This document shows, piece by piece, positions 35,885-63,510 of a stretch of DNA of 64,000 nucleotides (the stretch's first letter is position 1; each line of letters begins with the position of its first letter). Position numbers and translations under genes: made by a program. A model generated the notes under the pieces. That model made no database searches. It was not told where the DNA came from and saw only the letters and a list, made by a program, of their open reading frames with translations. This DNA comes from Candidatus Iainarchaeum sp. (GTDB taxonomy: Archaea > Iainarchaeota > Iainarchaeia > Iainarchaeales > DTGL01), in the NCBI GenBank assembly GCA_026413945.1, contig JAOAJX010000006.1:1-64000 (forward strand), written 5' to 3'.

Positions 35885-35889
35885 CTGCA

Positions 35890-36336: not shown

Positions 36337-36354
36337 AGGTTACATTGGCTATAC

Positions 36355-36410
36355 AAAAGGTTTAAATATAAGAAATAGTATTCTTATGAAATATAACTCG
36401 TGAGGTGAGG
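36355..36410 (+). promoter_or_regulatory. BRE-TATA promoter and strong RBS for the 36413 gene
   Basis: AAAAGGTTTAAATA at 36355-36368 and GAGGTGAGG at about 36402-36410. Confidence 0.6.
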
Positions 36411-36412
36411 AT

Positions 36413-37749: not shown

Positions 37750-40700
37750 ATGTTAACAGATAAGCTCGGCTCTATTTACGCAGGCATAGAGGAGAAATGG
37801 TTTGAGCTGCTTAAAGCACTGCAGGAAAAAGGCATTCCTGCGTATAGCTATGCTGAGTTCTTAGAAAGCAGGGGCATACCATCTTTGCCTTTTACAATAG
37901 CCATCATAATACTCCTTCTTGTAATTTTGTTTTCATTTTCTTTTGGGGGCGCATACACGGATGTGAGCTTAACTGTTACAATAAGGGATGATCAGGGGCA
38001 ATCGCTAAGTGATGTCAAGCTCGAATTATATAATGACGATGGGCAAACACTTAAAAGTGAAACTGTGCAAAGTGGTTACAAGATTGAACTTAAAAGAGTT
38101 AAGATTGGCTCAACCATAACAGCATCTGCTTCAAAATCTGGTTACAGAAGTGCTTCGGCCGAAAAAGAGATAAATTCCAAAACCGCAACTATAAGCATAA
38201 CACTTAAGAGAGAGGCAAGGCTTGTTTCTGCAAAAGTCCGGCTCATCGATGAGCTTACCTCAACCTTGATCAGAGATGCGAGGTGCGAAGTTTCTTTTGA
38301 TAAGAATACATTAGGCATTACTAGAGACTATGATGGCTTGTTTTTGGTAAATGTGCCACAGAAAACAGATGTGGTGCTAAAATGCACAGCTAATGGCTAT
38401 GAAGACCTTCAGGAAGCAATGCGATTTGATGACGGTGAAATCAAAGTAGTAAAGTTGAAGCCAAAATCGGTTGATGTTAATTTAAGCACTCTACTGATAA
38501 GCGTATATGACGAGGAAACAAAGCAGCTTATAAAAGGGACAAGCATTCGCATTATAAACTCATCAACAGGCGTCACGATAACAGACATTAATTCACAGAG
38601 CGGCGATTATACTGAAAAGATAAAGATAAACACCCAGGTTAGGATAATTGTAGAAAAAGCAGGTTATATGAGCTATGTTGAAGATTTCACCATAAGAACC
38701 GCAGAGGTTGTTAAGAAAATATACTTAAAAAAAGGCGGTGCACAACTTATAGTAAATGTTACCTCAAAGGATGGCATTGTGCAAGTAAATGCTGATGTTT
38801 CGCTTTTTGACTCAAACTTCCAACTCGTTTCTGCAAAAAAAACTGCCGTTTTAGGGAATGCTGCTTTTGATGGTATTGATCCAAACAGGGATTATTATTT
38901 TAATGCATTCAAAGAAGGTTTTCTGCCGGCTTATGGAAGAATAAGTGCAGGGACCAAAAGCTTGGATATTAAACTTGAAAAGCCAACAGCACAAAATTCT
39001 GCATTGGTGAAAATAACAGTTAGGAACAGCTCAGGCAATATTACAAACAATGCAGCGCTGAAATATTATCGCATTATAAATGCATTCAAGATTCCTCTTG
39101 GCATTCCTGTGAGAAAAACAGGGCTTACAGGCACAATTATAGAAACCCTTCCAGAGGGTACATTCCTTATAGCTGCCGAGACTGAAGTAGAGTATGGTGA
39201 AAAGGAAATAACAGTGATGGCAGGCATCGACCAACAGGTTGACATAAACATGTCAAGAAAGCCAAACTTTGTTGAGCTTCGATTAATTGATGGGAATGGA
39301 ATGCCTTTGAAGGGAGAAGTTATTGTAAAGAGCAAAAGCGGAAAGACACTTTTTGCTGGAAATGTAAATGGGGGCGCGATTTTTGACAGTGAGATGAATG
39401 AAAGCTTTTTGGTGAGCGTGAAAACGCCTGATGGCAAAACATTTGAGCAGGAAGTAAGGGTTGGCGCAAACAATGTTGCTGAAGTCCGATTAGGGGCTGA
39501 TAAAAAGGAACTAACAGATGGTGTCAAGCCCATAATAGAGTTTGCTGGAGTTTTTGATTCTGGAGGAAAAAGCATTGAAGGAGTTACGGCTGGGGAGTTT
39601 GCTTGGCTGCGTTTCAATGTCAGTTTTCCCCAGGGTGAGAAAACAGGCATACATATAAGGGTTGGGCCTGATAGCATTGCGTCTGCCGATGCCCAAGAGA
39701 TTGGAATTTTTGGTTTTGATGGAAATGCAAGCAGCTTTGTGTATGGCAAAAGCTATCAGGCACCTTTAGGTGAACAAAAGGATCTTGCAAGCAAAGGTGC
39801 AGCGAATGAGAGAAACAAATGGCTTGAGCTTTACTTTAACAAAGCACCATCGCAAACAGCAGTAAGCATAAAGGTAAAAACAGATAATATAAGCAGAGAA
39901 AAAGACTTTGAAGTACACTACAGAGCTTGGAGCGAAATAGGTACAAAAGTATTCAGAGACCCTGCAGACAGCGTGCTTGGAAATGAGAAAACAAGCAATG
40001 CAAAGCAAGCGCTTTATGCTGAAACAAAGATTGCAAGAGTAAAGGTATTTGAAGGAAAAGCAAGCTGCTCTGAAGAACTCTGCATAGCTCTTGCTTTAAT
40101 AGACTCAAACAATGTGAAGGTTAAAGAAGATGGTTTCTCTGCAGTTGAGGGTCAAACATATGCTCTAGAAATCTCTGTAAATTCTGGCAAAAAGATGAGT
40201 GCTGAAATTGTAGTAAGAAGCGAAAACTCAAATGTATTGCTTTCAGAGCTTACCGAAGATGTGTTGTCCTTTAGCCCGAAGGGAGAATTTTCAAAGACTG
40301 AGTTAAGGGGCTCCTTAAAACTCGAGGCAAATTCTTCAAAAATTGTAAGGGCTTACTTCAAAGGCAAGTCAGCCGGTACAGCAACGCTTGAGGCCCTTGT
40401 TAGGAGCGGAGACCTGAACGCAAATAAAAAGATAAGTTTCAATGTAACTGGAAGCAAAGAAATGCTTGCTGAAATTTATAAGAAAGGTGAAATAAAGGCA
40501 GGTGAAAAGCTAAGAGTTACCTTAAGGGATTCTGAAACAAAGGATCCCATCACAAATGCTTTTGTTTCAATAACAAGGGAAGGTGAGGTGCTTTTAAGCA
40601 CTACTGGAAACAACACAAATGAAAACGGTGCAAATGGCATTTATGTCTTGGGTATAGATAAGCTAAGCCCGGGAAAGTATGTGCTGACAGCTAAGGCAGT

Positions 40701-43700
40701 TGGTTACAAAGATGCTTCTTTCCCAATAGTAATTTCAGCAGAAAAGTTACTTTCAATAGAACCACAATTAGAAATAATGCTAAATAAGGGCGAGAAACAA
40801 AGAAGCGCAAAGCTGAAGCTTACAAATGGCTCATTTGATGTTATAGATAAGCTTGGTTATGAAGTAAAAGGCCTAAGCGGGGATACAAGCGATTTTAACA
40901 TCATAGTTGCTCTGCCTCCAAAAATAGATGTCAGCAGAACCATTGATATTGAAGTGGTTGCCATATATAAAGGAGATGTTGAGAAAAGAGCATATGCTGA
41001 ATTTGAACTTATTGTTAGTGGATCTGAAAACCCAGTAGTAACTGCAAAAAGCAAAATAAAGGTTTCATACAATAAAGAGATTCCACCAGAGTGCATTGAG
41101 ATTGACAAAAGTGAGGCTGAGATGCATTTCTCAGGAATTGCTGGCTCAGCTGAAGTCTTGCCTTTGACAATAACATACAAAAATGAAGCCTTTTGCAATA
41201 AGCCGCTTACATTCACGCCCAAGATGAAAAGCGATGATGATAAGCTTGTGCTAAGTGCACAGCCCTTCACCATAGTGCCTGGTGAAAATAAGACTATTGA
41301 GCTGAAAATAACAAACAATGCAGAAAGAGTGGGTGTGTTTGAGCAAAAAGTAGAAGCTACGGTATTCCTAGAAGCACCCGAGGTTACGAAAAGCATTAGC
41401 TTGGGGATATTATTTACAGATCCTGCTTATGCGCTCCAGACGAATGATAACATACCGATATTCATGAGTTTTGATGTTGCAAAAGGCAGCTTTAGCGGAA
41501 CAGCACCTTTGTTTGCGAAGAACTTTGGCAAAAAGGTTATTGAAAATATAAGGTGGAGCGTTAAGCCACCACAGCAGATTGAAATTTATATAACTTCTAC
41601 AACCGGCAGTGGTAGTGGACAGCCACAGAACATTCCCAACCAGCAAATGCCTGGAATGCAAAATTTCATGCAAGCACCAAACACGCCTTACATACAAGGA
41701 AACCCTTCAATGGCCGGAACCCAGTTTGCTGTAACCCTTGCTCCAGGCGAAGAAATGGAACCAAAAACAGTATTGGCAACAAGCACTGCAGCTAACCTCA
41801 CAAGAGGGCCTCACAAGGGCGAGATAATACTGACTGGAACTGTCGATGGCAAGCAGTTCCAAAAAGTAGTTTCGATATGGGTATTTGTTTCAACAGCACA
41901 ATGCATAAAAGTTGCCCCAGCTGATGAGCTTTACTTCTCAAGTGAGGATTCATCTCAGGGTGTAATAGCAAAGAAGATAACAATAAAGAACGAATGCGGA
42001 GAAGTAGCCAGGAACTTTATCCTAAAGCCCCAAAACCTTGGAAACAACACTTTGAGCATAACACTTCTTGGCAATAAGGACTTTTTGTATCCTGATGAAA
42101 GTGCACAAGCACAAATAGTTCTTACAAAGCGCGGTGATTACTTCAATGCTCAAAGGCCTGATAACATAATTGTTAGTGTTTTCCTAGTAAATAGCCAGAA
42201 ATTTGTTGATTCTAATCCCTTGCCTGTGCTTATTGAAGTAGGAAAGAAGCCAGATGTATCTGCTGGTCCAGTTTATAAAGAAGTGCAAATACCTGTTTGC
42301 GGCGAAACATCTTCAGTTAAAAAATCAGTCCAGTTCCCTGTAATGAGTGCAGATATTGGCTGTGATTCTGGCTACTGCGACGCAGTGCAGCTTTCTGGCT
42401 ATATTGTGGAGCGCATAAAAGGTGTGATGCAAAAAGTTGACAAAGTGCTGCAGCAAAACGATTTGGTGAGCAGCTATGCTATGTGCAGCCAGTTGGAAGG
42501 CTTCTGCAGCTTTTCTGCAATGGGCATAGTGCCTGAAGTTTACACAGTTTATATGAGAAATGATTCTTTTGGAAAAGAAGTTCTGCAAAGAAGGGTTGAA
42601 AGCTCAAAGGAGTTTGCAACATTTGTAACAGAATATTTCCAAGGCGATGTTAGTGAGATAGTAAAGAGCGCAACTGGTTTCACAACAAGCAAAATATTCA
42701 TGACAAAGCCTCTTGTTGGCTGCGGTCGCTATAAGATATCAATACAAGGCGCTGTGCAGAATATTCAAGGGCGTTTGTCAAGAGAAAACTACTTTATACT
42801 TGTAAAAATTGTTGAAGATAGGAAAGTTACGCCTGAGTGCATGATGCGTATCCAAAACATTGCAAATTTCTTACCATTAGATCGTGGGCTTGCTGCTGAC
42901 AAACATTATAATACCTGGCTCGGAACAACCGAGGGTTTGGATGCCACACGTAAAGCAGCTGAGCTTTTTGCACAAAAGCTTTTTGATGATAAGAGCAGAG
43001 TTAATGTTGCATATCACACGAATAAGCTTAAAGTTATTCTCGGTGAAATACCTGAAAGCGGCATTGCAAAGATTTCAATGAACCAGGTATCGCAACAGCA
43101 GGCACAGCCTGCAACCCTTGGCGTTACAATAAATAAGCTTTATGTTACGCTTGACGAAAAGATGCAGGATGAAATGATTGCAAAAGCATCTGAAGCGCTT
43201 AAGCAACTCATGGAGGGCTCATTTACTGTTGAGGGCTGCATAACAAAGGATGACTCTGCACTTGTAATATCAAAGCTCGAGCACACCGGCGACCTTGACA
43301 TTGAGAAAGCATCAGACACAATTGAACTTTACTATAGTATGCCTATGTGCGTTGATATGAACGTAGTTAGCACAGTTCTTGAGCCGGTGGTGCTAAAAAC
43401 AAGCTTTGCTTCGATGAAAGACAATGAAAAAGCAGGTATTCAGGATGTTTGGATTGAAGTCGATGGCAAGAGAATTTCAGAGTACTCTGAAAGGCAGGAG
43501 GGGACGCCAATCACACTTGAAAAAGAGGGTGGAGAAGAAAGCAAAAAGTTTAAGAAAAGCTTTAAACTATGCGTAAAGGCAAATGATGCTTACTTTGAGC
43601 TTGCTGCAGGCAAGAAGATTGGTGTGAAAGCCAGAAGCGTTATATTTGCAACTAAGGAGATGCGCTCATGGAAGGAAGTAACACTTGAGCTTTGTGGGAT

Positions 43701-45828: not shown

Positions 45829-45833
45829 TTTAA

Positions 45834-47525
45834 GTGAAAGTCCGTGGTTTTAATCTGTTTACAGCACTACTCGCAATGATAATTGTCGTAACAAGCTCCA
45901 TGCTTGTGCTAATAATGATACAAAATGAAAGAAACGCGAACACCATTGTCGAAAATGCAACAAGTGATGCTAGGCTTGAAGCGGTTATAAGGACAATGCG
46001 CACAGATGTGCTCAATTCTTTCAACCATTATGTTAGGGAAGAAATAGAGTACTACACAAGCATGAATCCCATTCCAATAGAAGATCTCTCTGTTTGGGAG
46101 GATTGGGATACACTCATAAGGTATTTTATACACGGTTACTTTGGACGTAGTGGTTCACCCATGTTTGCATCACAGATAGCAAACAGCATGCCAGAAATGA
46201 TAAGAAGCTACCGCGAAACCCTAACTTATGAAGCACGTTACAAAGTTGAAGTTGTCGGCGACGATGAAAAGTTAAAGGATGCAATACTTGAGCTAATACT
46301 TGTATCAGCAGAAGAAGATGATTTCATTGAGGTAATTCAATGTGATGGCACACCGCAGGGCTGCCCCATTGGAAGCTTTTATATTAATCTTAGAATAACA
46401 AAGCTGAGCAATGAAAAATATGAAAGCTTGCCAAGGATTGTGGTGCAAGACCTTGTAACAAAAAAAGAGATTAGGGAAATAATACTTCCAAAGGCAGACC
46501 TAAAGATGTATGTCCCATCACGGCTTTTTAAGGCAATGGCTTATACGAGATATTTTATGCATACTGACTTAACTAATGTAAATTCTTCTAATGATTATGG
46601 TTATTTATCTCCAAGAATACACAATGAGATTGATTCAATGGCTTTAGGCATCTGTGACTATGGATTTTGCAAACCTCGGGAAAATCCATACTTTCCACCA
46701 ACTGCAAGGTTTATTGAGGACAAAGGATGTCCCAATAGCGGCAGAAATCAGTTAGATAAAGTAATTGGGAATTTTAGAGGCCATTCTTTTGTCTATAACC
46801 CATCAGATGGTGCTGATTTAAGAGAATCTCTTGAGAAGCTTGTAAAGATGCGCATATGCGATCTTTCTGCAAAGCATGTTGCACCTTTAAGCACAGATAA
46901 ATTCACAGTTGCGAAGGGGCCTTCTGTGGAAGGCGTTGATTGCTATGTTACGTTTGATAGGGTTTCAGCAACTGCTACATCTGCGAAAAAAGTAGAATAT
47001 TCTTTGCCGGGCCTTACTTTACCAGGCATAATGCCACCCCAAGAGCCAAACAATCCAAGTGCATGTCCCTTCAATTTCAACTTACCACAAAACCGAAATT
47101 TGGGGTACTACATAGAAGGAAGCAAAATTAAGTGGCCGTCAGAGAAAACAATTAGCGTCCATCAAGACGTTTGTAGTGCACTTTTAGCTACTGTGCCAGG
47201 CCTTGAACAAAAGCTAAGGTTTTGTGGTGTTCAAAATTGGAGTTGTTGTGCAGAGATTGCTGAAGCTACCTTTGTAGTTACTTTTATAGAAGGCGATGCA
47301 AACTATAAGGTAAACAAGAACAGGAATGTGAGATTTATGTTCCAGATTCCTGACATGAGCTACACGCCATTTAATCCAAATTACACTTCTGGATCAGTGC
47401 TTGGAACGCTTGGTTGTGCTTTAGAGCATCAGCCGAGATTACAAAGCTGCAACCCAGATCAATGGACTTGCCAAACATATGAGTATCAGGGCAATGTATA
47501 TGGCTGCTATCCAAAAGTGCCATAA
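45834..47525 (+). CDS. Large class III signal-like protein (563 aa), Cys-rich
   Basis: MKVRG-FNLFTALLAMIIVVTSSMLV followed by a long helix and Cys-rich globular domains; lies between G1 and G2. Confidence 0.68.
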   Translation: MKVRGFNLFTALLAMIIVVTSSMLVLIMIQNERNANTIVENATSDARLEAVIRTMRTDVLNSFNHYVREEIEYYTSMNPIPIEDLSVWEDWDTLIRYFIHGYFGRSGSPMFASQIANSMPEMIRSYRETLTYEARYKVEVVGDDEKLKDAILELILVSAEEDDFIEVIQCDGTPQGCPIGSFYINLRITKLSNEKYESLPRIVVQDLVTKKEIREIILPKADLKMYVPSRLFKAMAYTRYFMHTDLTNVNSSNDYGYLSPRIHNEIDSMALGICDYGFCKPRENPYFPPTARFIEDKGCPNSGRNQLDKVIGNFRGHSFVYNPSDGADLRESLEKLVKMRICDLSAKHVAPLSTDKFTVAKGPSVEGVDCYVTFDRVSATATSAKKVEYSLPGLTLPGIMPPQEPNNPSACPFNFNLPQNRNLGYYIEGSKIKWPSEKTISVHQDVCSALLATVPGLEQKLRFCGVQNWSCCAEIAEATFVVTFIEGDANYKVNKNRNVRFMFQIPDMSYTPFNPNYTSGSVLGTLGCALEHQPRLQSCNPDQWTCQTYEYQGNVYGCYPKVP

Positions 47526-47635
47526 ACAGAATATTAAAGGACATTTTAATGCATTTAAATTAAAGATAAGATTAATAAATCACAAATAACTATATAGATA
47601 CCAAAAAAGCCATTAAAGATAGGCGGTTGGTTTAA

Positions 47636-54955: not shown

Positions 54956-55029
54956 TGCGAATTATAAAAGCTTAGTCAATAAACAAAAAATATATTAATA
55001 TTAGAGGCGTATTAAAGTTAGGGATATCT

Positions 55030-58000
55030 ATGGGAATAATGAGTTCTTTGCGTGAATTTTATTACCATTTAGAGGATCGCTACTATGAAGTAATAGACAA
55101 AATAAGCACTAAAATACCCATAAACAAATTAACAGATGCTATTGACAAAGTTTTTCCTTCATTTATTCTTTTTATAATACTTTTATTTGTACTTTTAGCA
55201 GCTTTAGTGCTTTTTTTAATTCCATCCGTGGTAATTCCAAAAGATGTCGCATTAAATGTTTTTGTACAGTATCAAGACAGGTTTGGTGCAAAAAGACCTC
55301 TTGAGGGCGCAAAAATTGAGATAATCGTTGGTGAAAAGGTTCATAGGATAACAACATCAGAAAATGGAAAAATTCAGCCAATAATCCTCAAACCAAAAAG
55401 TGAAGTAATACTGCGCGTTTCAAAGGATGGTTTTAAGCCAAACCCGGCTGAGAAAAGCATAACGATGGAGGATGAAAATGCACAGGTAAGCTTTTTGCTT
55501 ACAGAGATAATAAAGACACAGAGCATTAGCTTCAAGATTATAGATGAAAATACAAAAAGCCCAATAGTGAAGCGCGTATCATTATCATTTGAGTGCTCAA
55601 ACAAAAAAGCAAATCCGCCAAAAGCTGCTGAAAAATACACTGATTATAGCGGCAGTATCCAAATAGATGATGTTGAGATTGACTGCTTACCATTGCTAGT
55701 AACGGTAAATGCGCAGGAGTACGAAACAGCAGAAAATGTCAGTGTTAGAGATGGTACCACAATAGCTTTGAGGAAAGTTGTAGAGCTTAAGCCGGTAGAA
55801 CAAAAGGGCAGGCTAATTGTAAATGTCACCTTTAGAGGTGAGTTGCCAGAAGAGAATATTATTGTTGATCTTGAAAAGGATACTGGTGCAGCCCCAATTT
55901 TTATGGAATCTGGAGTTACTAGCAGTGGCCAAGTTGTTTTTGAAGTCTTGCCTGGTAAATACCGAGTAAGAACAAAGGCAACTGCAAATTATAGTGTTGC
56001 GGAATCACAATTTATAAATGTTGGTGCAAACGAGAATAGGTCAATCAGCTTAGAAATTCAGAAGATAATAATTGGCAGTATAAAGATACAAGTTTTTGAT
56101 AAAGACAACTCAAAGCCATTAGCAAATGCCAGAGTAACATTAATTAAAGATAATACTCAGTTTGCATGCGCAGATACAAATGCTGAAGGCAGAGCTGATT
56201 TCCATCTATCCAAAGACGAAAATTTCTTGCTTGTCGTTGATCATCCTGATTACTGTGTTTATCGCCTTAGAGATGTGAGAAAATCGGATAGCATTCTTAG
56301 AATAGGCCTTGTAAAATACACTCAAGATTGTGGCGGCTCCATATCAGTAAAGGTTATCGACTTTGAAAAGCGTGCCATTTCAGGTGCAAAGGTTGCTGCC
56401 TTTGATGAAAACGGTAGCAGCCTTGGGCTAAAAGAGTTGATAACAGACATAAACGGCATCGCGGTATTCAAAGGGTTTTATCTCGGAAGATACAAATTCT
56501 TCGCATATAAGGGCTTTGGAAGCAGCTGGAGCGATATTATTGAGTTCTCGCCAAGATTGGGCACTGAACATGAAGCAGTGATCGTATTAAGCATCCCTAA
56601 GGCAACTCTAAAACTGAAAGTAACTAATGATGGTGGTGAAGGCCTTCCATTTAGTGATGTTATTGTAAAAGATGCATACACTGATAAAGTAATAAAGGGG
56701 CCACTAAAAATTGAAAATATTGGTGGAGATATTGACATAAACATAGATGCCGGCTTTTCTTTCTATTTGTATATAAACAACCCAGATTACGCACCATACA
56801 TAAGCGAAAGAATAGTGCTTAAGCCAGAAGAGCAGAGGCAAATGCATGTAAAGCTTGAGCCAAAGAGAATAAGTGGCGAAATAGCCATTGAATTCTTAGG
56901 CCTTTTTAAAGATGGGCAAAATGCTGTTGTGCTTGCAGCTGGAAAAGAATACATGGCAAAGTTTAAGGTTTCTGTCCCAGAATCTGCACAATATGATAAA
57001 TTCGGGGTGCATCTACGAGTTGGAAAATACAATATAATGGAAAAAGACTTCTTGTTCATAAAAGAAATTTATGCTGGCGGAAACCCAAAAATTATTCGGG
57101 GCATTTCATATAGCCCAGAGCAAGGCATGGGTCATGATTTCAGTCTATTGAGCACTGAAAGTGCAAAATGGGTTAATCTTGAATGGACAAGATTGAGTGG
57201 TGGCACCATTTATGTTTACGCAAAAGTTAAGGTAAAAGAATCCGCATCCTCTGAAGAGCTAAAAGTAATGTGGCGTGCTTGGGGCCTTAGAAAAGGTTTA
57301 ATGGTAAGAGATCCTGAAGATATGGCTTTAGGCAATGCTATGAGCGATGCAGAGCTTTATGCGAAAACGTATGAGCGTATTTATAATGTAGGAGAAGAAA
57401 AGCTTTGCACAGATAAGTGGTGCACTGTTTTCAAAGCACTTGATATTGAGGAAAATGTTGCAACATATATTGATGGAAGCTATACTGCAAAAGTTGGAAA
57501 ACCTTACAAGCTATACTTTAGTATAGCAAACAGTAGCAAATTTGAAACTGACACTTTTACAAATGTCAAGCTGAAGATATTTAATACTGAAAAAAACATA
57601 ACCTTTGGAAACTACATTGTTTATGGAGAAACGGTTGTTAAAGGCAGTGCTAATGCAAATGAAACACCATACATTGAAGTGGGAAATATAAAGCCAAATA
57701 ATGAAATTCATGGTGAGATAGAATTTTCGCCAAAATCAGGCAAATTTGGAAGCATAAATTTACGCTTGCACGATCCAACAAAGCATGCGCACATATTCGA
57801 AGAAACCATTGCGGTTAGCATAATTGCGGCAAGAAACTTCACGATTGACTTTAAGGTTGGTGAAAGCTTTCAGTCAGAGGCGCCTCTGCTGCCAAGCGGT
57901 GTTGAGAATACAATTATTGCTAGAATAAGGGACAAACAATCTGGGCTAGAAGTGTCGGATGCTATAGTTAAGGTTAAGGACTCTACTGGCAACACTATAA

Positions 58001-61000
58001 TACAAACCTTTACAGGCTCTTTAGGCCTTGCAGAAATAAAGCTTCCTTCGCTCATGCCAGATGAAAAATTAGTGCTTACTGCAGAAAAGCCAGATTATGA
58101 AGAAGCAAGGAAAGAAATACGCACTGATGGAAATGTTATTAATCTTGAGCCAGCAGAGATAGGCCTACAGCTTAATGTTTTCACAAAAAGGGAAGACAGC
58201 GTAGTTGTGAGAATCTTAAACAAAACAGCAATGACGCTCAAGCTTAGGGCAATTAAGCTTTCGGGAGAATTCTATGGAATAATTGACGAGCGGAAAGTTA
58301 GGGATTGGCTAGTTGGTGAATATGTAGGCAAGGAGATAGGGCCCAAAGGTAAGTTAGATATCGCACTAAAGGTTTCGCTAAGCGATTATGGAAAAACTAT
58401 TAATGAAGTCAAGAACCTTGAGGGTCTGGTAACAGCAAGCGTCTCCACTTCCTCTGCCTATGGTCACGAGTGGCATGCTGATAGCAAAGTCAAAATCTCT
58501 GTTGGAATAGGCGGTGAAGTTGATGATCCTTCATGCCTTATTGCCAGCATAAAAGAATGGAAAGCAAAAACAAAAAGCAACGAGGTAAGCACTGATTTTT
58601 CTGTTAAAAACAACTGCACTCTCGAAGGAAAGCCTATAGCACTCAAAAACTTAAGTGCAAAAATTGAGCTTAAAGGCAACCGGCTTGGAAGCTATTATGT
58701 GAAAATTGGCGACGTTGGCATAGAACTAAGCAACGCATACCCTAAAATATTGAAAGGAACTTTAAACCCAGAAGAAACTTTACCTGCCCTATTATCATTT
58801 GCTCCAGACGGTGGCATTGTCGGAACTGCAAAGGCAACTATTATAATAACTGCAGAACATTACACTAATAAAGGAAAGCAGACTTTGAGCACAAGCATAG
58901 AGACTGAAATAGAGATGATAAGCTTAGAGAATTGTATAAGATATGATAAAAGTCTCATAAGGATAGTTGATCATAACAGTGCAACTTTGAAAATAGAAAC
59001 TAAAGGTTGCAAGGTGCCAATTGACTTTATGCTTGATACTAAAATTGCGGTTTCTGAAAAAGAGTTTAACATGAAGGCTGATGATAATAAAGAATTAATA
59101 GTAATGCCTTCTCAGGAAGACATACCTGGACAGTATCCAATATATGTGATGGTAAAAAGTGCTAACGACAGCGAATATTCTTTCAACAAGCTTATAAGGG
59201 TAATTATAGAGCCCAAAGGCTGCTTAAAATTGAACCGCTATGAGTTTGACATATACGACGATGCAAATAACCCATATGATGGCTTTGATACTGCTCTTTT
59301 AATGAATGAATGCTATAAAAGGACTGAAAAGATAAGTATAAGCTATGATGAGCGTGACTGGTGGGAAGCAATAAAAACCGGCGCAGTATGGGGCCTTGTA
59401 GGTTTTGTCTATGGTGGCGTAAGGTCACTTGCAGCAGGCAAAACTTTCTTTGGCACAGAAAGGCCTTCTAATGTTTGCAGCAAAGCAGGCTATAAATACT
59501 GTGGAACTAAAAATCTATGCAAAGATGAACGTGTAGTAGTAGTTAATAATGTAACATGCTGTGCATCCGAGTGCATAACAGAAGAAACAGGTCTTCATAA
59601 AGACATTTGCAGCAAAAAAGGGTATAATTACTGTGGCGCAGGCAATTGTGATTTAACACAAGGTAAAGAGACGGTAGTAGATGGGGTTGTATGCTGCACA
59701 GGTAAATGTAAAACAGGAACTATTGAGAAACCTGAAAATATTTGCAAGTCGGCAGGCAAATATTTCTGCAAGACTGACGAAATATGCCCAGATGCAGCAT
59801 ACGTTGTTGTTGGTGATGTAACATGCTGTGGAAAACCATGTGCAAAAGGTCAGATTGCTAAGCCACCGATAACTCAGCCAACAACAGCAACTGTAAAACC
59901 ACCTTCAGGACAAAAAACAGACGAAGAACTATGTAAGGAATATTATCCAAATTCGCGCAAAATTACTTCTCAGGAAGAGTGTCACCCAAATTGTACATTT
60001 AGCAGACAAACTGCGGAAAGGTTAGTGAAATGTTGCAAGAATGACTGCACCGGCACAGAAAAGCCACCAACTGATGGTACAACAGAGGGGGGAAAGCCAC
60101 CCTCTGAAACAGGCGCACCTATTGAAGGACCAACCATACCAGATTGCTACAACACTGAGCTTGAATGTGCTGCAAAGGCATGGAAAAAGACAACTTTGCT
60201 TACTGGTGGTTGTGACTGCTATGCAGCAATAAATTGCATATATGACGAGTTTGGAAAGTGTTATAGGTTTGGGTATTGTAATAACAGCAAATGCACAACT
60301 CAAGGCACGACAGGCCCAAGTGAGCCCGTGGAAGGAGAATGTAAAATAGAGGGTTATTTCTGTAAAGGAACGGTAATGTATTGGAGAGATAGTTGCGGAA
60401 ATGAAGGCATACAGATGGACTGTGCAGAATCTGGTGCCATATGTGAAGCTGGAAATTGTGTATTACAGGAAGGTTGCAAACTTGAAGGTTACTTCTGTCA
60501 AGGAACTGTTTTACATTGGAAAGATAGCTGTGGTAATACGGGTGTTGAGAGAGACTGTGCAGATGCTGGAGGAATATGTCAGAATGGGAATTGTGTTGCT
60601 GCTGAAAGTGGTTGCCAGCGCATTGGTTACTTCTGTCAAGGAACTGTTTTACATTGGAAAGATAGCTGTGGTAATACGGGTGTTGAGAGAGACTGTGCAG
60701 ATGCTGGAGGAATATGTCAGAATGGTAATTGTGTTGCTGCTGAAGGCAGCAGCAGTGGTACCACTCAACCGCCTTCAGGCGATGTTTGTATTGGTTGCCA
60801 TGAAACATTGTCCAAATGCCAAAAAGCTAATGGTGCAGGCATCGCTAGGATATGTGATTGTGAGCTTGCTGTTACATGTGAATATGTGCCATCTTGTTCT
60901 GTAGCAACGCCGTGCTACAGATTCAAGAGCTGTAACAACAGTTTTTGCTCTTTAGGTAGTAGTGGAAGAAAAATGAATGAGGAAGGTATGATAAGAAAGG

Positions 61001-63510
61001 TTGTCGCTGCCAATTCTTCACCAGGCTTTGCAATTGGCTTATTTAGCTTGGAAAGCATCACAAACATCTTTAAAGGAAATATAGACATTTTGGGAAGTTT
61101 GCTGAAGATTGATGATCCATGGACTGGGGCATTGATTGGCTTTATAGCTGGCACACTATACACTTACTGGCAGCAGAGCCAAAATGTTGGCGTGCTCCAG
61201 ATTCCTGTTGCTGTAAGAGACCTAAACATATTGGAATTAAAGCTTCTAATACAAAAAGGTCTTGAAGAAGAGATTGAAAACAAGATCATCGTGGAAAAGG
61301 GCAAAGCCAAGATTGAAAACCCACCAGAAAAGCCATTGGGCATTGAGAAGATTGAAATTGTGTTCAAAAACAATGGCATAAAGCAAGAAGATATATACAA
61401 GCCAATATACCGCATACTAAAAGTGAATGGAAGCAAAATGGAATATCAGACTGACTACAATACAAAGAAAAAGAAAGATGCTGAGGCAATGAAGAAAATG
61501 GAGCCATCAGTGATTGGCAGCGAAGAGTATATACAGAAATTCCATCTGCAGTTCAATTCGTACAAGGCAAAACCAACCAAACCGGAAGTGAGACCTGAAG
61601 TAAGCTGCAAAGTTGGTGGTCTCATTGGCTCAACAGGGAAAGAAGCATTGCCAAAGATTAAGCTTTCATGGAACTGGAATGATATTGCAATTAATGAATG
61701 TGATGAAAGCGGAATCGGCAATTACTGCGATGCAACACAATTTAGCATAGAATTACTTAAGAAGTTAAAAAGAATTGACGAACTGCTCAGAGGCCAGAAA
61801 TTAAAGTGCCCTTCGGCTGAAGGCATACTTAGTGAAAAAACACAGGAATTGGATAATCTTAAGTTGGACGTCGCAGTTACAAAAATAAGAGTTGAAAAAA
61901 GTGGATTTAATGCAACAGTTATTGGAACCATAGCAAGCAATAACAAGCAAGAGATGACAGTAAATGCATTTTTGTCTGTTTCCAAAGGTGGAAATACAAT
62001 AAACTGCCCAGAAGGTGAAAAAGCAGTAAAGGTTATTGACAAAACCGAAGTAACATGCGTCTTTAACAACCTAGAAGAAGGCCTTTATGATGCTATGGTC
62101 AGGATAAGCCCTCAGCTAACAACATGTAGTGGGTCATGCAAAAACGAAAATTTAGGCAATGACACTATAAGCACAAAGTTCGCTGTTGGCACAACAGCAG
62201 GGATATTTGAAAAATGTGAGCCATACAGTACTGAACGCCTCCCAGATTTTATAGCAGCAAACCCAAACAATGCAAGTCTTAAAGAAGCATTATCACTTAC
62301 AAACTTCAACGCATACCTTATGCAAGATGGTTACACCTTGGACTTCAGAAAGGATTTCCATGAGTTCTCAGAAACTAAAGATTTCTTCAGCACCCCTTCT
62401 TGGTACAAAGGAGACATCGGCATAGGCAAGTATTTCTCAAGTGCAGCGCTCTTTGAATTTAAATCTCCATTCCTGAGACCTGAGTCAGGCTACCTACCAG
62501 CAGGCAAGTACAATGTTAGGATAAAAATTGATTATAATAATGGATCTTGGTGCTTGTTTGAAGGCACAATTCCAAATGCAAGAATAGAAGTAATTTTTGA
62601 GCGTTTAGATACGCCCGATCCAGATTCTGTGTTTTATTATATGCCATTTAACGGTCTTGTTGGTGTTGATAGCCAAAACGGGCGGCAGGGCTATGGAATA
62701 AACTTCAGGCAAAAATCAGAGGAAACCATAAAAATAAATGAAGATGTGAAACAGCCAATAAGAACTACCACAATTGCAAACTCAATACCAATACCAAATG
62801 GCTGGGTTGAAGCCCGCGTTGTTAAGGATTTCAAAACATTGCATGGTGATACGCCTGGTGTTGTGCTCGAAATTGAAAAAAGCACAGCTGGCTTGAATAT
62901 GGTATATAGCCCAAGTGTAGCCACACCGCTTTTGCTAAAAGTTAGTGGTGGTGAGAGAAAGAACGCTTATGCATTTTACCAGCTAACAATAAACAACAGA
63001 CCACAGGAAGCCTCAAGTAGCTTGTTCTCATGGAGTGGCCTTGTAAAAGGCTGTAAGGACTTCACTGATGCTGAAGTTACAGAAGCATTTAACTACAGGC
63101 GTGATATACGCGGAGGTGTTGGCAAAACTCAATGTGCAGGCAGCTTTTCAACACATCAGTATGGCGTAGAGTGGTGCAACATTAAGAGGCAAGGAGATGT
63201 ATTCCTGAAAACAATTCTATTCACACCACAAGAGAGTGTAGCTTTGCTCGAAATTGTAAGCTCTTCCGACAAAGCAGTGTTCATAAGCCCAAAAGGCACT
63301 GGCAATCGCATAGAAACCGGTGGCATCGAAGGTGCAACAATTACATCTGTAGAGAAAATACTTAAGCTTGTGGAAGAGAAGAAAGTGTGTGTTGCCGGCC
63401 TTGGAAGCAATAGCAGGGCAACATTCTTCTGGAATCAGCAACAGCTTATAGATGCTGCATTTAAAAACACGATAGAAAGCATACCTTCACAATGCATAAA
63501 AAGTAGCTGA
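55030..63510 (+). CDS. Giant (2826 aa) membrane-anchored surface protein with Cys-rich repeat insert, paralog G3
   Basis: N-terminal helices + TM; carboxypeptidase-regulatory-like repeats; RDPEDMALGN..LYAKTY; YCDATQ; YYMPFNGLVG; C-terminal VCV..FFWN; Cys-rich insert of about 500 aa. Confidence 0.8.
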   Translation: MGIMSSLREFYYHLEDRYYEVIDKISTKIPINKLTDAIDKVFPSFILFIILLFVLLAALVLFLIPSVVIPKDVALNVFVQYQDRFGAKRPLEGAKIEIIVGEKVHRITTSENGKIQPIILKPKSEVILRVSKDGFKPNPAEKSITMEDENAQVSFLLTEIIKTQSISFKIIDENTKSPIVKRVSLSFECSNKKANPPKAAEKYTDYSGSIQIDDVEIDCLPLLVTVNAQEYETAENVSVRDGTTIALRKVVELKPVEQKGRLIVNVTFRGELPEENIIVDLEKDTGAAPIFMESGVTSSGQVVFEVLPGKYRVRTKATANYSVAESQFINVGANENRSISLEIQKIIIGSIKIQVFDKDNSKPLANARVTLIKDNTQFACADTNAEGRADFHLSKDENFLLVVDHPDYCVYRLRDVRKSDSILRIGLVKYTQDCGGSISVKVIDFEKRAISGAKVAAFDENGSSLGLKELITDINGIAVFKGFYLGRYKFFAYKGFGSSWSDIIEFSPRLGTEHEAVIVLSIPKATLKLKVTNDGGEGLPFSDVIVKDAYTDKVIKGPLKIENIGGDIDINIDAGFSFYLYINNPDYAPYISERIVLKPEEQRQMHVKLEPKRISGEIAIEFLGLFKDGQNAVVLAAGKEYMAKFKVSVPESAQYDKFGVHLRVGKYNIMEKDFLFIKEIYAGGNPKIIRGISYSPEQGMGHDFSLLSTESAKWVNLEWTRLSGGTIYVYAKVKVKESASSEELKVMWRAWGLRKGLMVRDPEDMALGNAMSDAELYAKTYERIYNVGEEKLCTDKWCTVFKALDIEENVATYIDGSYTAKVGKPYKLYFSIANSSKFETDTFTNVKLKIFNTEKNITFGNYIVYGETVVKGSANANETPYIEVGNIKPNNEIHGEIEFSPKSGKFGSINLRLHDPTKHAHIFEETIAVSIIAARNFTIDFKVGESFQSEAPLLPSGVENTIIARIRDKQSGLEVSDAIVKVKDSTGNTIIQTFTGSLGLAEIKLPSLMPDEKLVLTAEKPDYEEARKEIRTDGNVINLEPAEIGLQLNVFTKREDSVVVRILNKTAMTLKLRAIKLSGEFYGIIDERKVRDWLVGEYVGKEIGPKGKLDIALKVSLSDYGKTINEVKNLEGLVTASVSTSSAYGHEWHADSKVKISVGIGGEVDDPSCLIASIKEWKAKTKSNEVSTDFSVKNNCTLEGKPIALKNLSAKIELKGNRLGSYYVKIGDVGIELSNAYPKILKGTLNPEETLPALLSFAPDGGIVGTAKATIIITAEHYTNKGKQTLSTSIETEIEMISLENCIRYDKSLIRIVDHNSATLKIETKGCKVPIDFMLDTKIAVSEKEFNMKADDNKELIVMPSQEDIPGQYPIYVMVKSANDSEYSFNKLIRVIIEPKGCLKLNRYEFDIYDDANNPYDGFDTALLMNECYKRTEKISISYDERDWWEAIKTGAVWGLVGFVYGGVRSLAAGKTFFGTERPSNVCSKAGYKYCGTKNLCKDERVVVVNNVTCCASECITEETGLHKDICSKKGYNYCGAGNCDLTQGKETVVDGVVCCTGKCKTGTIEKPENICKSAGKYFCKTDEICPDAAYVVVGDVTCCGKPCAKGQIAKPPITQPTTATVKPPSGQKTDEELCKEYYPNSRKITSQEECHPNCTFSRQTAERLVKCCKNDCTGTEKPPTDGTTEGGKPPSETGAPIEGPTIPDCYNTELECAAKAWKKTTLLTGGCDCYAAINCIYDEFGKCYRFGYCNNSKCTTQGTTGPSEPVEGECKIEGYFCKGTVMYWRDSCGNEGIQMDCAESGAICEAGNCVLQEGCKLEGYFCQGTVLHWKDSCGNTGVERDCADAGGICQNGNCVAAESGCQRIGYFCQGTVLHWKDSCGNTGVERDCADAGGICQNGNCVAAEGSSSGTTQPPSGDVCIGCHETLSKCQKANGAGIARICDCELAVTCEYVPSCSVATPCYRFKSCNNSFCSLGSSGRKMNEEGMIRKVVAANSSPGFAIGLFSLESITNIFKGNIDILGSLLKIDDPWTGALIGFIAGTLYTYWQQSQNVGVLQIPVAVRDLNILELKLLIQKGLEEEIENKIIVEKGKAKIENPPEKPLGIEKIEIVFKNNGIKQEDIYKPIYRILKVNGSKMEYQTDYNTKKKKDAEAMKKMEPSVIGSEEYIQKFHLQFNSYKAKPTKPEVRPEVSCKVGGLIGSTGKEALPKIKLSWNWNDIAINECDESGIGNYCDATQFSIELLKKLKRIDELLRGQKLKCPSAEGILSEKTQELDNLKLDVAVTKIRVEKSGFNATVIGTIASNNKQEMTVNAFLSVSKGGNTINCPEGEKAVKVIDKTEVTCVFNNLEEGLYDAMVRISPQLTTCSGSCKNENLGNDTISTKFAVGTTAGIFEKCEPYSTERLPDFIAANPNNASLKEALSLTNFNAYLMQDGYTLDFRKDFHEFSETKDFFSTPSWYKGDIGIGKYFSSAALFEFKSPFLRPESGYLPAGKYNVRIKIDYNNGSWCLFEGTIPNARIEVIFERLDTPDPDSVFYYMPFNGLVGVDSQNGRQGYGINFRQKSEETIKINEDVKQPIRTTTIANSIPIPNGWVEARVVKDFKTLHGDTPGVVLEIEKSTAGLNMVYSPSVATPLLLKVSGGERKNAYAFYQLTINNRPQEASSSLFSWSGLVKGCKDFTDAEVTEAFNYRRDIRGGVGKTQCAGSFSTHQYGVEWCNIKRQGDVFLKTILFTPQESVALLEIVSSSDKAVFISPKGTGNRIETGGIEGATITSVEKILKLVEEKKVCVAGLGSNSRATFFWNQQQLIDAAFKNTIESIPSQCIKSS
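59473..59842 (+). repeat. Three tandem Cys-rich protein repeats (about 44 aa) in G3
   Basis: (V/I)C(S/K)..G..(Y/F)C....C......V..V.CC...C three times; diverged at DNA level. Confidence 0.75.
60352..60744 (+). repeat. Three tandem 135-138-bp coding repeats in G3
   Basis: GYFC.GTV..W.DSCGN.G...DCA..G.IC..GNCV x3; copies 60487-60606 and 60625-60744 differ at one base. Confidence 0.9.

What the first reader, a model, noticed from the sequence alone, without database searches (positions are those of the whole stretch)
37750..63510. Three giant paralogs share an unnamed multi-domain core
Collinear motifs in G1/G2/G3: I.F.G...G......AG; G.SY....G...D......KW; RDP.D..LGN..LYA.T (about 39955, 49820, 57307); C....C; a series of Cys-bounded beta domains (C[IL]...I.N.C); CD[AG].Q; NFLPLD/MYMSFD/YYMPFN. 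G2 and G3 both end C[IV]....WN. They are highly diverged, implying old subfunctionalised subunits rather than recent duplicates. I cannot assign the core to a known family.
Basis: partly seen in the sequence, partly recalled or inferred. Interest (0 to 1): 0.72.

Follow-up and report, generated by a model that had tools for sequence, protein, structure and literature searches.

The report
Giant anchored surface proteins of Iainarchaeota
Three neighbouring genes of a tiny uncultured archaeon encode huge membrane-anchored surface proteins, old relatives of one another, each a long chain of ordinary beta-sandwich domains with an unfamiliar tip, so they look like a new family of stalked cell-surface proteins and not a new kind of machine.

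Summary
G1 (37750-45828), G2 (47636-54955) and G3 (55030-63510) are intact ORFs of 2692, 2439 and 2826 aa. All three share a collinear N-terminal part of about 1260 aa (G1 against a G2/G3 profile, E 2.9e-41). G2 and G3 also share two C-terminal blocks. G1's C-terminal half shares only one short element, C[DE]..[FY]CDAxQ.

The family is large and otherwise unnamed. A core profile found 998 representative proteins, 436 of them at E<=1e-30. Every source name that gives an organism is Diapherotrites or Iainarchaeum. Pfam, NCBIfam and PDB sequence searches name only prealbumin-like beta-sandwiches.

AlphaFold2 shows that the "unnamed core" is five beta-sandwich domains (pLDDT 91.8). After it come a disordered hinge, more sandwiches, an alpha/beta module and a beta-rich end domain (pLDDT 84.6). 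Foldseek returns only generic Ig/MG/ASH arrays.

Each protein has a conserved cytoplasmic tail and one N-terminal membrane helix. The genes lie in a co-directional type IV pilus-like cluster.

Best reading: ancient paralogous, N-anchored, stalked surface proteins, adhesin-like or envelope-like. That they are subunits of one complex is not shown.

The parts
37750..45828 (+). G1, 2692 aa. Cytoplasmic tail plus TM (aa 1-61), prealbumin-like sandwiches (aa 73-150, 247-324, 332-410, 920-1009), shared core (aa 585-1284), then a G1-specific C-terminal half.
42298..42393 (+). G1 aa 1517-1548: the only C-terminal element shared with G2/G3 (C..., GCDSGYCDAVQL).
   Evidence: (Y1542 C1543 D1544 Q1547 L1548 invariant in 8 G1-like)
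43954..44079 (+). G1 aa 2069-2110: hydrophobic, Cys-containing stretch (KD 1.89), followed by a G1-specific C-terminal region that I did not model.
   Evidence: a hydrophobic segment after the core in 3 of 6 G1-like
45834..47525 (+). 563-aa protein between G1 and G2 with a prepilin-like N-terminus (..RG|FNLFTALLAMIIVV) and 16 Cys. It sits in the same place in L001 and L002.
   Evidence: no Pfam or PDB match
47636..54955 (+). G2, 2439 aa. Short tail plus TM (aa 27-45), prealbumin-like sandwiches (aa 56-133, 234-309, 316-383, 401-484, 919-994).
49343..51445 (+). G2 core, aa 570-1270: five beta-sandwich domains, about aa 580-730, 753-909, 918-988, 994-1108 and 1120-1249. The RDPxD..LGN..LYA motif lies at the junction of the first two, and a C765-C770 hairpin follows.
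51446..51589 (+). G2 aa 1271-1318: low-complexity Q/Y/P-rich stretch predicted disordered (pLDDT <50), a likely hinge. It is G/Y-rich in homologs P0007 and P0008.
52823..53167 (+). G2 aa 1730-1844: Cys-rich knot (C1748, W1766, C1776, C1787-D-x-x-Q1791) leading into a 25-residue helix that opens the alpha/beta module (about aa 1789-2105).
53819..54949 (+). G2 aa 2062-2438: end module shared with G3 (PFDG motif, beta-rich domain, C2420...W2433-N2434).
55030..63510 (+). G3, 2826 aa. Tail plus TM (aa 46-64), prealbumin-like sandwiches (aa 261-344, 350-424, 437-522, 526-610, 961-1040), core aa 606-1317.
59437..61089 (+). G3 aa 1470-2020: lineage-specific Cys-rich insert (most of the protein's 88 Cys). 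It contains a 138-bp tandem repeat at 60487-60744 (1.9 copies, 99% matches) and is flanked by Gly-rich hydrophobic stretches.
61480..61929 (+). G3 aa 2151-2300: CDATQ region homologous to G2 1730-1844.
62287..63504 (+). G3 aa 2420-2825: end module homologous to G2 2062-2438.
63534..63998 (+). Start of a further gene with the same kind of N-terminal tail plus TM, followed by a prealbumin-like domain. It is cut by the window end.
37029..37679 (+). 216-aa archaeosortase/exosortase-like membrane protein directly upstream of G1. Cys104 (YLCTG) and His167 are kept in the L002 ortholog (66% identity).
   Evidence: (TIGR04178 35.1 bits, cut-off 23)
31235..37015 (+). Type IV pilus-like machinery upstream, all co-directional with gaps of 5-76 bp: FlaI/TadA-like ATPase (31235-33514), TadC/T2SSF-like platform (33527-35884), and two small proteins with prepilin-like N-termini (35890-36336, 36413-37015).

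Best explanation
G1, G2 and G3 are ancient paralogs of a family of giant cell-surface proteins. As far as named records show, the family is confined to Iainarchaeota (Diapherotrites, DPANN).

Each protein is a single-pass membrane protein anchored by its N-terminus. A conserved cytoplasmic tail of about 25-45 aa (LEDKYY...IPxFP type) and one TM helix hold an ectodomain of about 2400 aa.

The ectodomain is a jointed stalk: about six prealbumin-like beta-sandwiches, a conserved five-sandwich core, a disordered low-complexity hinge and further sandwiches. The stalk ends in a disulfide-stabilised distal head. In G2 and G3 the head is an alpha/beta module plus a beta-rich end domain. In G1 it is a different C-terminal half.

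Inferred mechanism: the stalk holds a paralog-specific head tens of nanometres from the membrane, where the head binds a partner, that is, another cell, a polymer or a neighbouring envelope protein. The three paralogs would provide three binding specificities. They are made together with a type IV pilus-like apparatus encoded in the same co-directional cluster.

Shown: the architecture, the paralogy, the anchor, the fold class and the gene context.
Inferred: extracellular location, adhesion or recognition as the function, and co-expression.
For: Architecture and family
- The core profile finds 998 representative proteins, 436 at E<=1e-30.
- Of 163 rows of 2200-3300 aa that hold the whole core, 159 have it starting at aa 560-660.

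Anchor
- An N-terminal hydrophobic helix is present in 112 of 114 G3-like, 55 of 55 G2-like, 6 of 6 G1-like and 9 of 9 unclassified proteins with an intact N-terminus.
- A conserved tail precedes the helix. [IVL]P occurs just before the helix in 148 of 184.

Fold
- Core model: pLDDT 91.8, all beta. Foldseek matches it to ASH/Ig arrays, PrgB Ig-like domains, alpha-2-macroglobulins and an S-layer protein at E 1e-10 to 5e-17, with TM 0.13-0.21.
- C-terminal model: pLDDT 84.6. It has a disordered stretch at G2 1271-1318, then beta, alpha/beta and beta parts.
- The family profile hits NOMO2, a rod of prealbumin-like domains, at E 1e-9.

Extracellular character
- Cys counts are even: 28, 30 and 88. 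There are 17-23 N-x-S/T sequons per protein.
- Conserved Cys pairs bound the domains.
- Some homologs carry LysM or fn3 domains.

Context
- A co-directional cluster runs from 31235 to the window end with gaps of 5-110 bp.
- The order archaeosortase-like, G1-like, 563-aa pilin-like, G2-like is repeated in L002. The order G1-like, 561-aa protein, G2-like is repeated in L001.

Precedent
- Large proteins in archaeal type IV pilus loci have been proposed as adhesins or S-layer-like proteins (PMC4858521, passages read).
Against: - There is no direct evidence of binding, of location or of expression.
- The head modules match nothing of known function. The Foldseek lists are dominated by the Ig-like parts, so the alpha/beta module and the end domain were never searched on their own.
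- Sequon density (0.7-0.8 per 100 aa) is only modestly above that of the cytoplasmic proteins of the window (0-0.5).
- The lifestyle of Iainarchaeota is unsettled. Ca. Iainarchaeum andersonii was suggested to be capable of independent life (PMC6349945, passage), so a 'host' to adhere to is not given.
- Linkage to the pilus genes was seen only in the window. The two close relatives (L001, L002) cover only the stretch from the archaeosortase-like gene to the G2-like gene. Wider synteny could not be checked because the metagenome contigs were closed.
Confidence: 0.5

Rival explanations
1. They are the building blocks or anchors of the cell envelope, an S-layer-like canopy. The N-anchored stalks would set the spacing, and the heads would contact each other laterally to form the outer sheet. 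The paralogs would be co-assembling components, as SlaA/SlaB are in Sulfolobales.
For: - Large, Ig-rich, probably glycosylated, membrane-anchored proteins are what archaeal S-layer proteins look like. No DPANN S-layer protein has been determined experimentally (bioRxiv 10.1101/2023.10.27.564410, passages read).
- The SbsB S-layer protein is among the Foldseek matches (rank 40, ranks 28 and 36).
- The family is conserved, with a fixed architecture, across many Iainarchaeota.
- Makarova et al. note S-layer-like proteins in archaeal pilus loci (PMC4858521, passages).
Against: - The S-layer match is generic Ig-like similarity with TM <=0.15.
- There is no sequence match to any S-layer family.
- The DPANN S-layer candidate described in that preprint has about 1000 aa.
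- A disordered hinge in mid-stalk and lineage-specific inserts in the head region fit variable adhesins better than a lattice.
- Expression level is unknown.
Confidence: 0.25
2. One reading: the three paralogs are subfunctionalised subunits of one hetero-oligomeric surface apparatus, possibly assembled or operated by the adjacent type IV pilus-like ATPase and platform through the conserved cytoplasmic tails.
For: - The subfamilies co-occur. Likewise P0006 and P0173 on 157382 bp, and P0018 and P0171 on 118659 bp.
- Gene order is fixed in L001 and L002.
- A conserved cytoplasmic tail in all subfamilies suggests a common cytoplasmic partner.
- The cluster is tight and co-directional with the ATPase, platform and pilin-like genes.
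Against: - Co-occurrence and shared regulation do not show contact.
So the set is not a fixed 1:1:1.
- The proteins are not pilins. A [KR]G site before the helix occurs in only 16 of 184.
Confidence: 0.15
3. They are membrane-active devices. The Gly-rich hydrophobic stretch far out on the stalk, expanded to a strongly hydrophobic hairpin in some G3-like proteins and present in G1, would insert into another cell's membrane to bridge or open it.
For: - A hydrophobic segment (KD>=1.6) lies after the core in 31 of 107 G3-like proteins, at a median of about 190 aa past the core, and in 3 of 6 G1-like proteins.
- P0009 has a 47-aa hairpin-like stretch reaching KD 2.88.
- In G2 the equivalent position is a short amphipathic helix, PLAWLGLLGGLL, with lower confidence.
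- How DPANN cells pierce their hosts is unknown (bioRxiv 10.1101/2023.10.27.564410, introduction passage).
Against: - Only 1 of 51 G2-like proteins, and a minority of G3-like ones, pass the threshold.
- The window's own G3 does not pass it.
- No fusogen or pore-former appears in either structure search.
- No host is known for this organism.
Confidence: 0.06
4. They are alpha-2-macroglobulin-like protease traps, using the conserved Cys...Gln as a thioester.
For: - Weak Pfam hits to the MG-type domains bMG3, MG4 and MG2.
- Bacterial and animal alpha-2-macroglobulins and complement proteins appear among the Foldseek matches of the core (ranks 18-50).
- An almost invariant C-D-x-x-Q sits at the start of a helix.
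Against: - The spacing is Cys to Gln i+4, not the i+3 of CxEQ (CxEQ is recalled, not tested).
- There is no Pfam, NCBIfam or PDB-sequence hit to a thioester domain, bait region or receptor-binding domain.
- The MG-like matches have TM 0.12-0.2 and are generic sandwiches.
- The neighbouring conserved Cys residues (C1748, C1776, C1787) fit structural disulfides as well.
Confidence: 0.03

Closest known systems
NOMO (nodal modulator, BOS complex subunit; PDB 9c7v_B)
   Same: A rod built of consecutive prealbumin-like (CarboxypepD_reg-type) beta-sandwich domains, tethered to a membrane by one helix. It is the best PDB sequence match of the family profile (E 1e-9, profile positions 344-497).
   Different: NOMO is eukaryotic and about 1270 aa. 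Its anchor is C-terminal (recalled). It has no distal head like the one here. Only the repeated sandwich domains match.
Giant bacterial Ig-repeat adhesins (for example SiiE of Salmonella; PMC6272769, search listing and abstract start only)
   Same: What it works like: a very long stalk of Ig-like domains that holds a binding region away from the cell surface.
   Different: No RTX or type I secretion signal and no BIg-repeat family hit beyond weak Big_1. The stalk here has about 13 unlike sandwiches, not dozens of near-identical repeats. It is anchored by an N-terminal TM helix in a cytoplasmic membrane.
Large adhesin-like or S-layer-like proteins encoded in archaeal type IV pilus loci (Makarova, Koonin and Albers 2016, PMC4858521, passages read)
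   Same: Large secreted or anchored proteins with conserved cysteines, encoded beside a VirB11-type ATPase, a TadC-like platform and fast-evolving pilins. They are proposed to be adhesins or S-layer-like proteins.
   Different: Those described carry DUF2341 or a C-terminal TM. The proteins here have neither, are two to three times larger, and come as three ancient paralogs.
Alpha-2-macroglobulin / complement MG-domain arrays (for example Salmonella alpha-2-macroglobulin 4u48)
   Same: Membrane-tethered chains of MG-type beta-sandwiches; Foldseek E 3.5e-13 for the core.
   Different: No thioester domain, bait region or CxEQ motif was found, and TM is only 0.15.
ASH/PapD-like domain arrays of ciliary central-pair proteins (PDB 7sqc, 9ijj)
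   Same: Top Foldseek matches of both models (E 4.5e-17 and 6.1e-9). The Cys-bounded domains with a '..I.N.C' strand look like ASH/PapD-type sandwiches.
   Different: Fold-level likeness only (8-12% identity, TM <=0.21). These are eukaryotic intracellular proteins with no functional link.

Membership tests
Prealbumin-like / CarboxypepD_reg beta-sandwich domains (PF13620) | Domain-level match above the curated Pfam cut-off | tested here: met
   66-75 bits against a cut-off of 32.3 in all three proteins. An iterated HMM finds 4-5 copies per protein. This names a domain type, not the protein family.
Type IV pilins / archaeal class III signal-peptide proteins | Short N-terminal signal with a [KR]-G/A cleavage site directly before the hydrophobic helix | tested here: not met
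   [KR]G within 8 aa before the helix in 16 of 184 family members. The tails are 25-45 aa and conserved. The 563-aa neighbour (45834-47525) does have such an N-terminus.
Archaeosortase/exosortase substrates (PGF-CTERM, PEP-CTERM and the like) | C-terminal tripartite signal: motif, TM helix, basic tail | tested here: not met
   G1, G2 and G3 have no C-terminal hydrophobic segment. Their C-termini were read. Other ORFs of the window (1382-3121, 5307-6980, 6926-8986, 13653-15023, 20235-24812) do have a C-terminal TM plus basic tail.
Alpha-2-macroglobulin / thioester-containing proteins | Thioester domain with a CxEQ motif, plus a bait region | tested here: not met
   No Pfam, NCBIfam or PDB-sequence match outside the sandwich domains. 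The conserved motif is C-D-x-x-Q. The CxEQ definition is recalled.
Alpha-2-macroglobulin / thioester-containing proteins | Array of MG domains | tested here: inconclusive
   Sub-threshold bMG3/MG4/MG2 hits. Foldseek E 1e-10 to 1e-13 but TM 0.12-0.2. This cannot be told apart from generic sandwiches.
Known archaeal or bacterial S-layer protein families | Sequence or whole-structure match to a characterised S-layer protein | tested here: not met
   No Pfam, NCBIfam or PDB-sequence hit. SbsB appears only as a low-TM Ig-like match.
Known archaeal or bacterial S-layer protein families | Forms a two-dimensional lattice and is among the most abundant proteins | not testable with these tools
   This needs expression data and microscopy.
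RTX / type I-secreted giant adhesins | C-terminal RTX repeats and secretion signal; long runs of near-identical BIg repeats | tested here: not met
   No such Pfam hits. The only tandem DNA repeat is a 138-bp unit inside the G3 insert.
The unnamed Iainarchaeota giant-protein family itself (defined here) | N-terminal tail plus TM; about 6 sandwiches; five-sandwich core with K-W, RDPxD, LYA and C....C at about aa 570-1270; total length of 2200-3300 aa | tested here: met
   All three window proteins fit.

The most novel reading that the evidence does not exclude
The cluster from 31235 to beyond 64000 encodes a previously undescribed surface organelle specific to Iainarchaeota. A type IV pilus-like motor and pilins would work together with three or more ancient giant N-anchored paralogs. 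Their conserved cytoplasmic tails would couple them to the motor. Their distal heads, some carrying a hydrophobic hairpin, would recognise and perhaps breach a partner cell. This would be a candidate for the unknown attachment and bridging machinery of DPANN archaea.
Probability: 0.1. Interest if true: 0.8.

Novelty: new variant of a known kind. Interest (0 to 1): 0.45.

Why it matters
DPANN archaea are thought to live by their cell surfaces, yet hardly any of their surface proteins have been characterised (bioRxiv 10.1101/2023.10.27.564410, passages).

These results define a large, architecture-conserved family of 2200-3300-aa surface proteins. So far the family is named only from Iainarchaeota, and it has three ancient subfamilies kept side by side next to pilus-like genes. 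The family had no name in Pfam or NCBIfam, and I found no description in six literature searches.

The family gives concrete targets, the head modules, for asking two questions: what these organisms bind, and whether they are host-associated at all.

It is not a new principle. The shared 'core' is a chain of ordinary beta-sandwiches.

Tried and rejected
Searches that led nowhere
- ESM Atlas look-alikes for G2 aa 1690-2439 and G3 aa 2420-2826: no usable hit.
- PHROGs: nothing for G1, G3 or the 563-aa protein; one weak unnamed hit for G2 (E 0.004). tblastn of G2 aa 1700-2439 against phage genomes: no match.
- Pfam on 13 fragments at E<=1: only noise.
- PDB sequence searches: nothing below E 0.15 for the single proteins; 0 hits for the G1-family profile.

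Complex and cluster look-ups
- Complex prediction of the G2 end module with the G3 end module: no verdict (score 0.00 against a mark of 0.32). This counts neither for nor against binding.
- The listing of cluster members could not be run because the database was off. Cluster names and taxa beyond those are therefore unseen.

Synteny
- The genome-contig scan found only 2 loci, both close relatives. Metagenome and viral contigs were closed, so synteny in distant family members stayed unchecked.

Recalled lead dropped
- I recalled that a DPANN cultivation paper (PMC8784108) stressed 'gigantic surface proteins'. A term search of its main text found 0 occurrences, so I dropped that comparison. Its supplements were not looked at.

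Ideas rejected
- Pilin: no class III signal.
- Archaeosortase substrate: no C-terminal signal.
- Phage tail fibre: no PHROG or phage match.
- Alpha-2-macroglobulin: no thioester domain.

Limit of the fold searches
- Whole-model Foldseek is dominated by Ig-like domains. It therefore says little about the alpha/beta module and the end domain.
Full report
WHAT IS THERE

The region holds three intact + strand ORFs (translations):
- G1, 37750-45828, 2692 aa.
- G2, 47636-54955, 2439 aa.
- G3, 55030-63510, 2826 aa.

A 563-aa ORF (45834-47525) lies between G1 and G2. A further ORF starts at 63534 and runs off the window. The RDP.D..LGN motif begins at G1 aa 736, G2 aa 729 and G3 aa 760, which gives nt 39955, 49820 and 57307.

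IS THE SIMILARITY REAL?

For the N-terminal ~1260 aa, yes, and strongly:
- G2 and G3 align over 1036 aa (26% identity, E 7e-85).
- G1 aligns with G3 over 388 aa (E 1e-17) and with G2 over 244 aa (E 1e-11).
- Against a profile of 11 G2- and G3-like proteins, G1 aligns from aa 3 to 1267 (1175 columns, E 2.9e-41).

For the C-terminal halves the picture splits.
- G2 and G3 share a ~115-150-aa region around the CDxxQ motif (G3 2151-2300 finds G2 1730-1844 at E 1.6e-18).
- They also share the last ~380-400 aa (G3 2420-2825 finds G2 2062-2438 at E 8e-50, both by iterated HMMs; hhalign E 5e-37).
- They share about 120 aa just after the core as well (E 1e-9).
- G1-like proteins are hit by neither HMM (0 of 8).
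- Profile-profile comparison of the G1-family tail with the G2/G3 tails stays at E 0.007-0.018, probability 3-6%.

What G1 does share is one short element. [FY]CD[AGST].Q[FLM] follows the core in 6 of 6 G1-like, 32 of 51 G2-like and 106 of 107 G3-like tails. It occurs in only 34 of 200000 shuffles of the G1 tail. It is preceded in all three window proteins by '..DI....C[DE]' (read). It was also the top, though non-significant, profile hit in both G1 comparisons.

THE FAMILY

A profile of the three window cores (alignment A3, G2 aa 570-1270) was run against 1.84 billion representative proteins. It found 998 hits at E<=1e-3, 648 at 1e-10 and 436 at 1e-30.

Of 198 fetched proteins that hold the whole core, 163 are 2200-3300 aa long. 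In 159 of those the core starts at aa 560-660. The architecture is fixed.

Every source name that gives an organism is 'Candidatus Diapherotrites archaeon' or 'Candidatus ainarchaeum sp.': 1, 2 and 8. The only two loci found in the species-representative genomes are Candidatus Iainarchaeum MAGs (lineage).

OLD PARALOGS

I classified proteins by their C-terminal halves (phmmer). Among the 198 core-bearing rows this gives 121 G3-like, 59 G2-like, 6 G1-like and 12 unclassified; of the 12, only 4 have a complete C-terminal tail.

A FastTree of the 198 core regions (697 columns) agrees with that split:
- The G1-like rows are one side of a branch (support 100).
- Window G2 sits in a starred 66-row set of 59 G2-like plus 7 unclassified rows.
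- The labels need 13 changes, against a shuffled mean of 67.

This is a quick tree with local supports only, and it is unrooted.

Window copies are 81% (G1), 54% (G2) and 73% (G3) identical to their nearest orthologs in the core, but 21-29% identical to each other.

Some contigs instead hold two G3-like genes.

WHAT THE PROTEINS ARE MADE OF

Pfam and NCBIfam name only prealbumin-like or Ig-like sandwiches (CarboxypepD_reg, SpaA, Big_1, sub-threshold MG domains). These lie in the first ~600 aa and at about aa 920-1010. Thirteen fragments of the rest gave only noise at E<=1.

PDB sequence searches gave nothing below E 0.15 for the single proteins. For the family profile they gave NOMO2 (E 1e-9), FAM171A1 and Gram-positive surface-anchor Ig domains, all on the sandwich positions. 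The G1-family profile found nothing.

AlphaFold2 on G2 aa 565-1260, with 45 homologs, gave a confident all-beta model (mean pLDDT 91.8, pTM 0.62). From the strand pattern I read five sandwich domains, at about aa 580-730, 753-909, 918-988, 994-1108 and 1120-1249.
- The RDPxD..LGN..LYA motif lies at the junction of the first two domains.
- The invariant C765 and C770 form a hairpin turn.
- The 'C...I.N.C' domain is the fifth sandwich.
- Conserved acidic residues around the first junction (E637, D639, D668, D733, D777, 86-95%) would suit a metal-stiffened linker. That is inference only.

Foldseek against the PDB returned ASH-domain arrays of ciliary proteins, PrgB Ig-like domains, alpha-2-macroglobulins and complement, titin and the SbsB S-layer protein. 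E-values were 5e-17 to 1e-10, but TM was only 0.12-0.21 and identity 8-12%. This is generic sandwich-array likeness.

AlphaFold2 on G2 aa 1255-2439, with 33 homologs, gave mean pLDDT 84.6. In order it shows:
- a disordered Q/Y/P-rich stretch (aa 1271-1318), a likely hinge;
- a sandwich (about aa 1324-1401);
- an alpha+beta domain ending in the amphipathic helix PLAWLGLLGG (about aa 1561-1570);
- an irregular part with long hairpins;
- a Cys-rich knot;
- a 25-residue helix that starts exactly at C1787-D-G-A-Q1791;
- an alpha/beta module (to about aa 2105);
- a beta-rich end domain (about aa 2126-2439).

Foldseek of this model against the PDB and against viral models again listed only Ig/PapD/BACON-type arrays, with TM <=0.14. 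The alpha/beta module and the end domain remain without an identified analog. They were never searched alone, so I do not claim a new fold.

ANCHOR AND TOPOLOGY

One strongly hydrophobic helix lies near the N-terminus in 112 of 114 G3-like, 55 of 55 G2-like, 6 of 6 G1-like and 9 of 9 unclassified proteins with an intact N-terminus.

A conserved tail of 25-45 aa precedes the helix (..Y..LEDKYY..LD.L...IP.Y...D.I...IPSFP). [IVL]P lies just before the helix in 148 of 184. A [KR]G prepilin-type site occurs in only 16 of 184. So these proteins are not pilins.

None of the three has a C-terminal hydrophobic segment. So they are not classical archaeosortase substrates.

Several features fit an extracellular ectodomain. 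These are even Cys counts (28, 30, 88), Cys pairs that bound the domains, 17-23 sequons each, and LysM or fn3 domains in some homologs. Location has not been shown.

Extra hydrophobic stretches after the core occur in 31 of 107 G3-like, 1 of 51 G2-like and 3 of 6 G1-like proteins.

CONTEXT

From 31235 to the window end everything is on the + strand, with gaps of 5-110 bp. The order is:
- a FlaI/TadA-like ATPase;
- a TadC/T2SSF-like platform;
- two small proteins with prepilin-like N-termini;
- a 216-aa archaeosortase/exosortase-like protein (TIGR04178 35.1 bits, cut-off 23);
- G1;
- the 563-aa protein with an ..RG|FNLFTALL.. N-terminus;
- G2 and G3;
- a gene that starts like a fourth family member.

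L002 repeats the order archaeosortase-like, G1-like, 563-aa protein, G2-like. L001 repeats G1-like, 561-aa protein, G2-like. The pilin-like calls rest on N-terminal patterns only, because no family matched.

MECHANISM

- Shown: a single N-terminal anchor, a long chain of about 13 sandwich domains with a hinge, a distal Cys-stabilised head that differs between paralogs, ancient paralogy, and a pilus-like gene neighbourhood.
- Inferred: the proteins stand on the cell surface as jointed stalks and use the heads to bind something. This is how giant Ig-repeat adhesins work.
- Main rival: a structural, S-layer-like role. I cannot separate the two without abundance or imaging data.
One complex prediction gave no verdict (listed under tried and rejected only).
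- Alpha-2-macroglobulin-like trapping and a membrane-piercing role are minor possibilities.

COMPARISON AND NOVELTY

The proteins work like giant stalked adhesins or envelope proteins, and they resemble NOMO in their bead-string of prealbumin-like domains. They fail the defining features of pilins, archaeosortase substrates, thioester proteins, RTX adhesins and known S-layer families (see the membership table).

Papers and what I saw of them:
- PMC4858521, passages: large adhesin- or S-layer-like proteins in archaeal pilus loci.
- PMC6393860, passages: DPANN pilus loci full of unannotated proteins.
- bioRxiv 10.1101/2023.10.27.564410, passages: no DPANN S-layer protein determined; candidates of about 1000 aa with Ig-like folds.
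- PMC6349945, passages: Ca. Iainarchaeum andersonii possibly independent.
- PMC8784108, term search of the main text.
- PMC6272769 and PMC6642349, search listing only.

None of six full-text searches turned up a description of this family. Subscription journals and supplements were not covered.

VERDICT

This is a real, large and unnamed family of giant N-anchored surface proteins with three ancient subfamilies. It is a new variant of a known kind, of moderate interest.

Noticed in passing
window 16950-18689: A second type II/IV secretion-family ATPase (T2SSE, E 5e-38) carries an N-terminal 4Fe-4S ferredoxin-type domain (Fer4/Fer4_6 at aa 59-83) and 25 Cys. It is followed by two T2SSF platform genes (18655-20162). 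An iron-sulfur domain fused to a pilus-type ATPase looked unusual to me.
   Followed up: no
window 20235-24812: A 1525-aa ORF downstream of that second ATPase/platform set. It has no Pfam or NCBIfam match, an N-terminal hydrophobic segment, and a C-terminal hydrophobic segment plus basic tail.
   Followed up: partly
window 1382-16884: A run of + strand ORFs that look like secreted proteins. Four of them (1382-3121, 5307-6980, 6926-8986, 13653-15023) end in a TM helix plus basic tail, which makes them possible substrates of the archaeosortase-like protein. The whole window is a surface-protein island.
   Followed up: partly
window 37029-37679 and L002 272-922: A small (216 aa) archaeosortase/exosortase-like protein sits directly upstream of G1 in both the window and L002 (66% identity; YLCTG Cys104 and His167 kept). 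None of the giants has the C-terminal signal such enzymes are known to cut. The reason for this conserved adjacency is unexplained.
   Followed up: partly
window 60418-60777 (inside G3): A 138-bp tandem repeat, 1.9 copies at 99% matches (60487-60744), encodes a Cys-rich 46-aa unit inside the G3-specific insert of aa 1470-2020. This is a very recent internal duplication in an otherwise ancient gene.
   Followed up: partly
window 63534-63998: The next gene begins with the same kind of tail plus TM helix and a prealbumin-like domain (weak similarity to the G2 N-terminus, E 7e-4). The array of related genes probably continues beyond the window.
   Followed up: partly
window 28471-31128, minus strand: Four consecutive small ORFs (167-252 aa), divergent from the ATPase gene. 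Several have an N-terminal hydrophobic stretch after a short charged leader (pilin-like), and none has a family match.
   Followed up: partly
G3-like homologs, e.g. P0009 aa 1457-1503; window G3 aa ~1440-1465 and ~2025-2060: About 190 aa after the core, 31 of 107 G3-like proteins have one or two strongly hydrophobic, Gly-rich segments. Lineage-specific inserts (Cys-rich, coiled-coil-like, LysM) sit between the two halves.
   Followed up: partly
window 1-64000: No tRNA or tmRNA gene in 64 kb. GC skew is positive throughout and almost all long ORFs are on the + strand.
   Followed up: no
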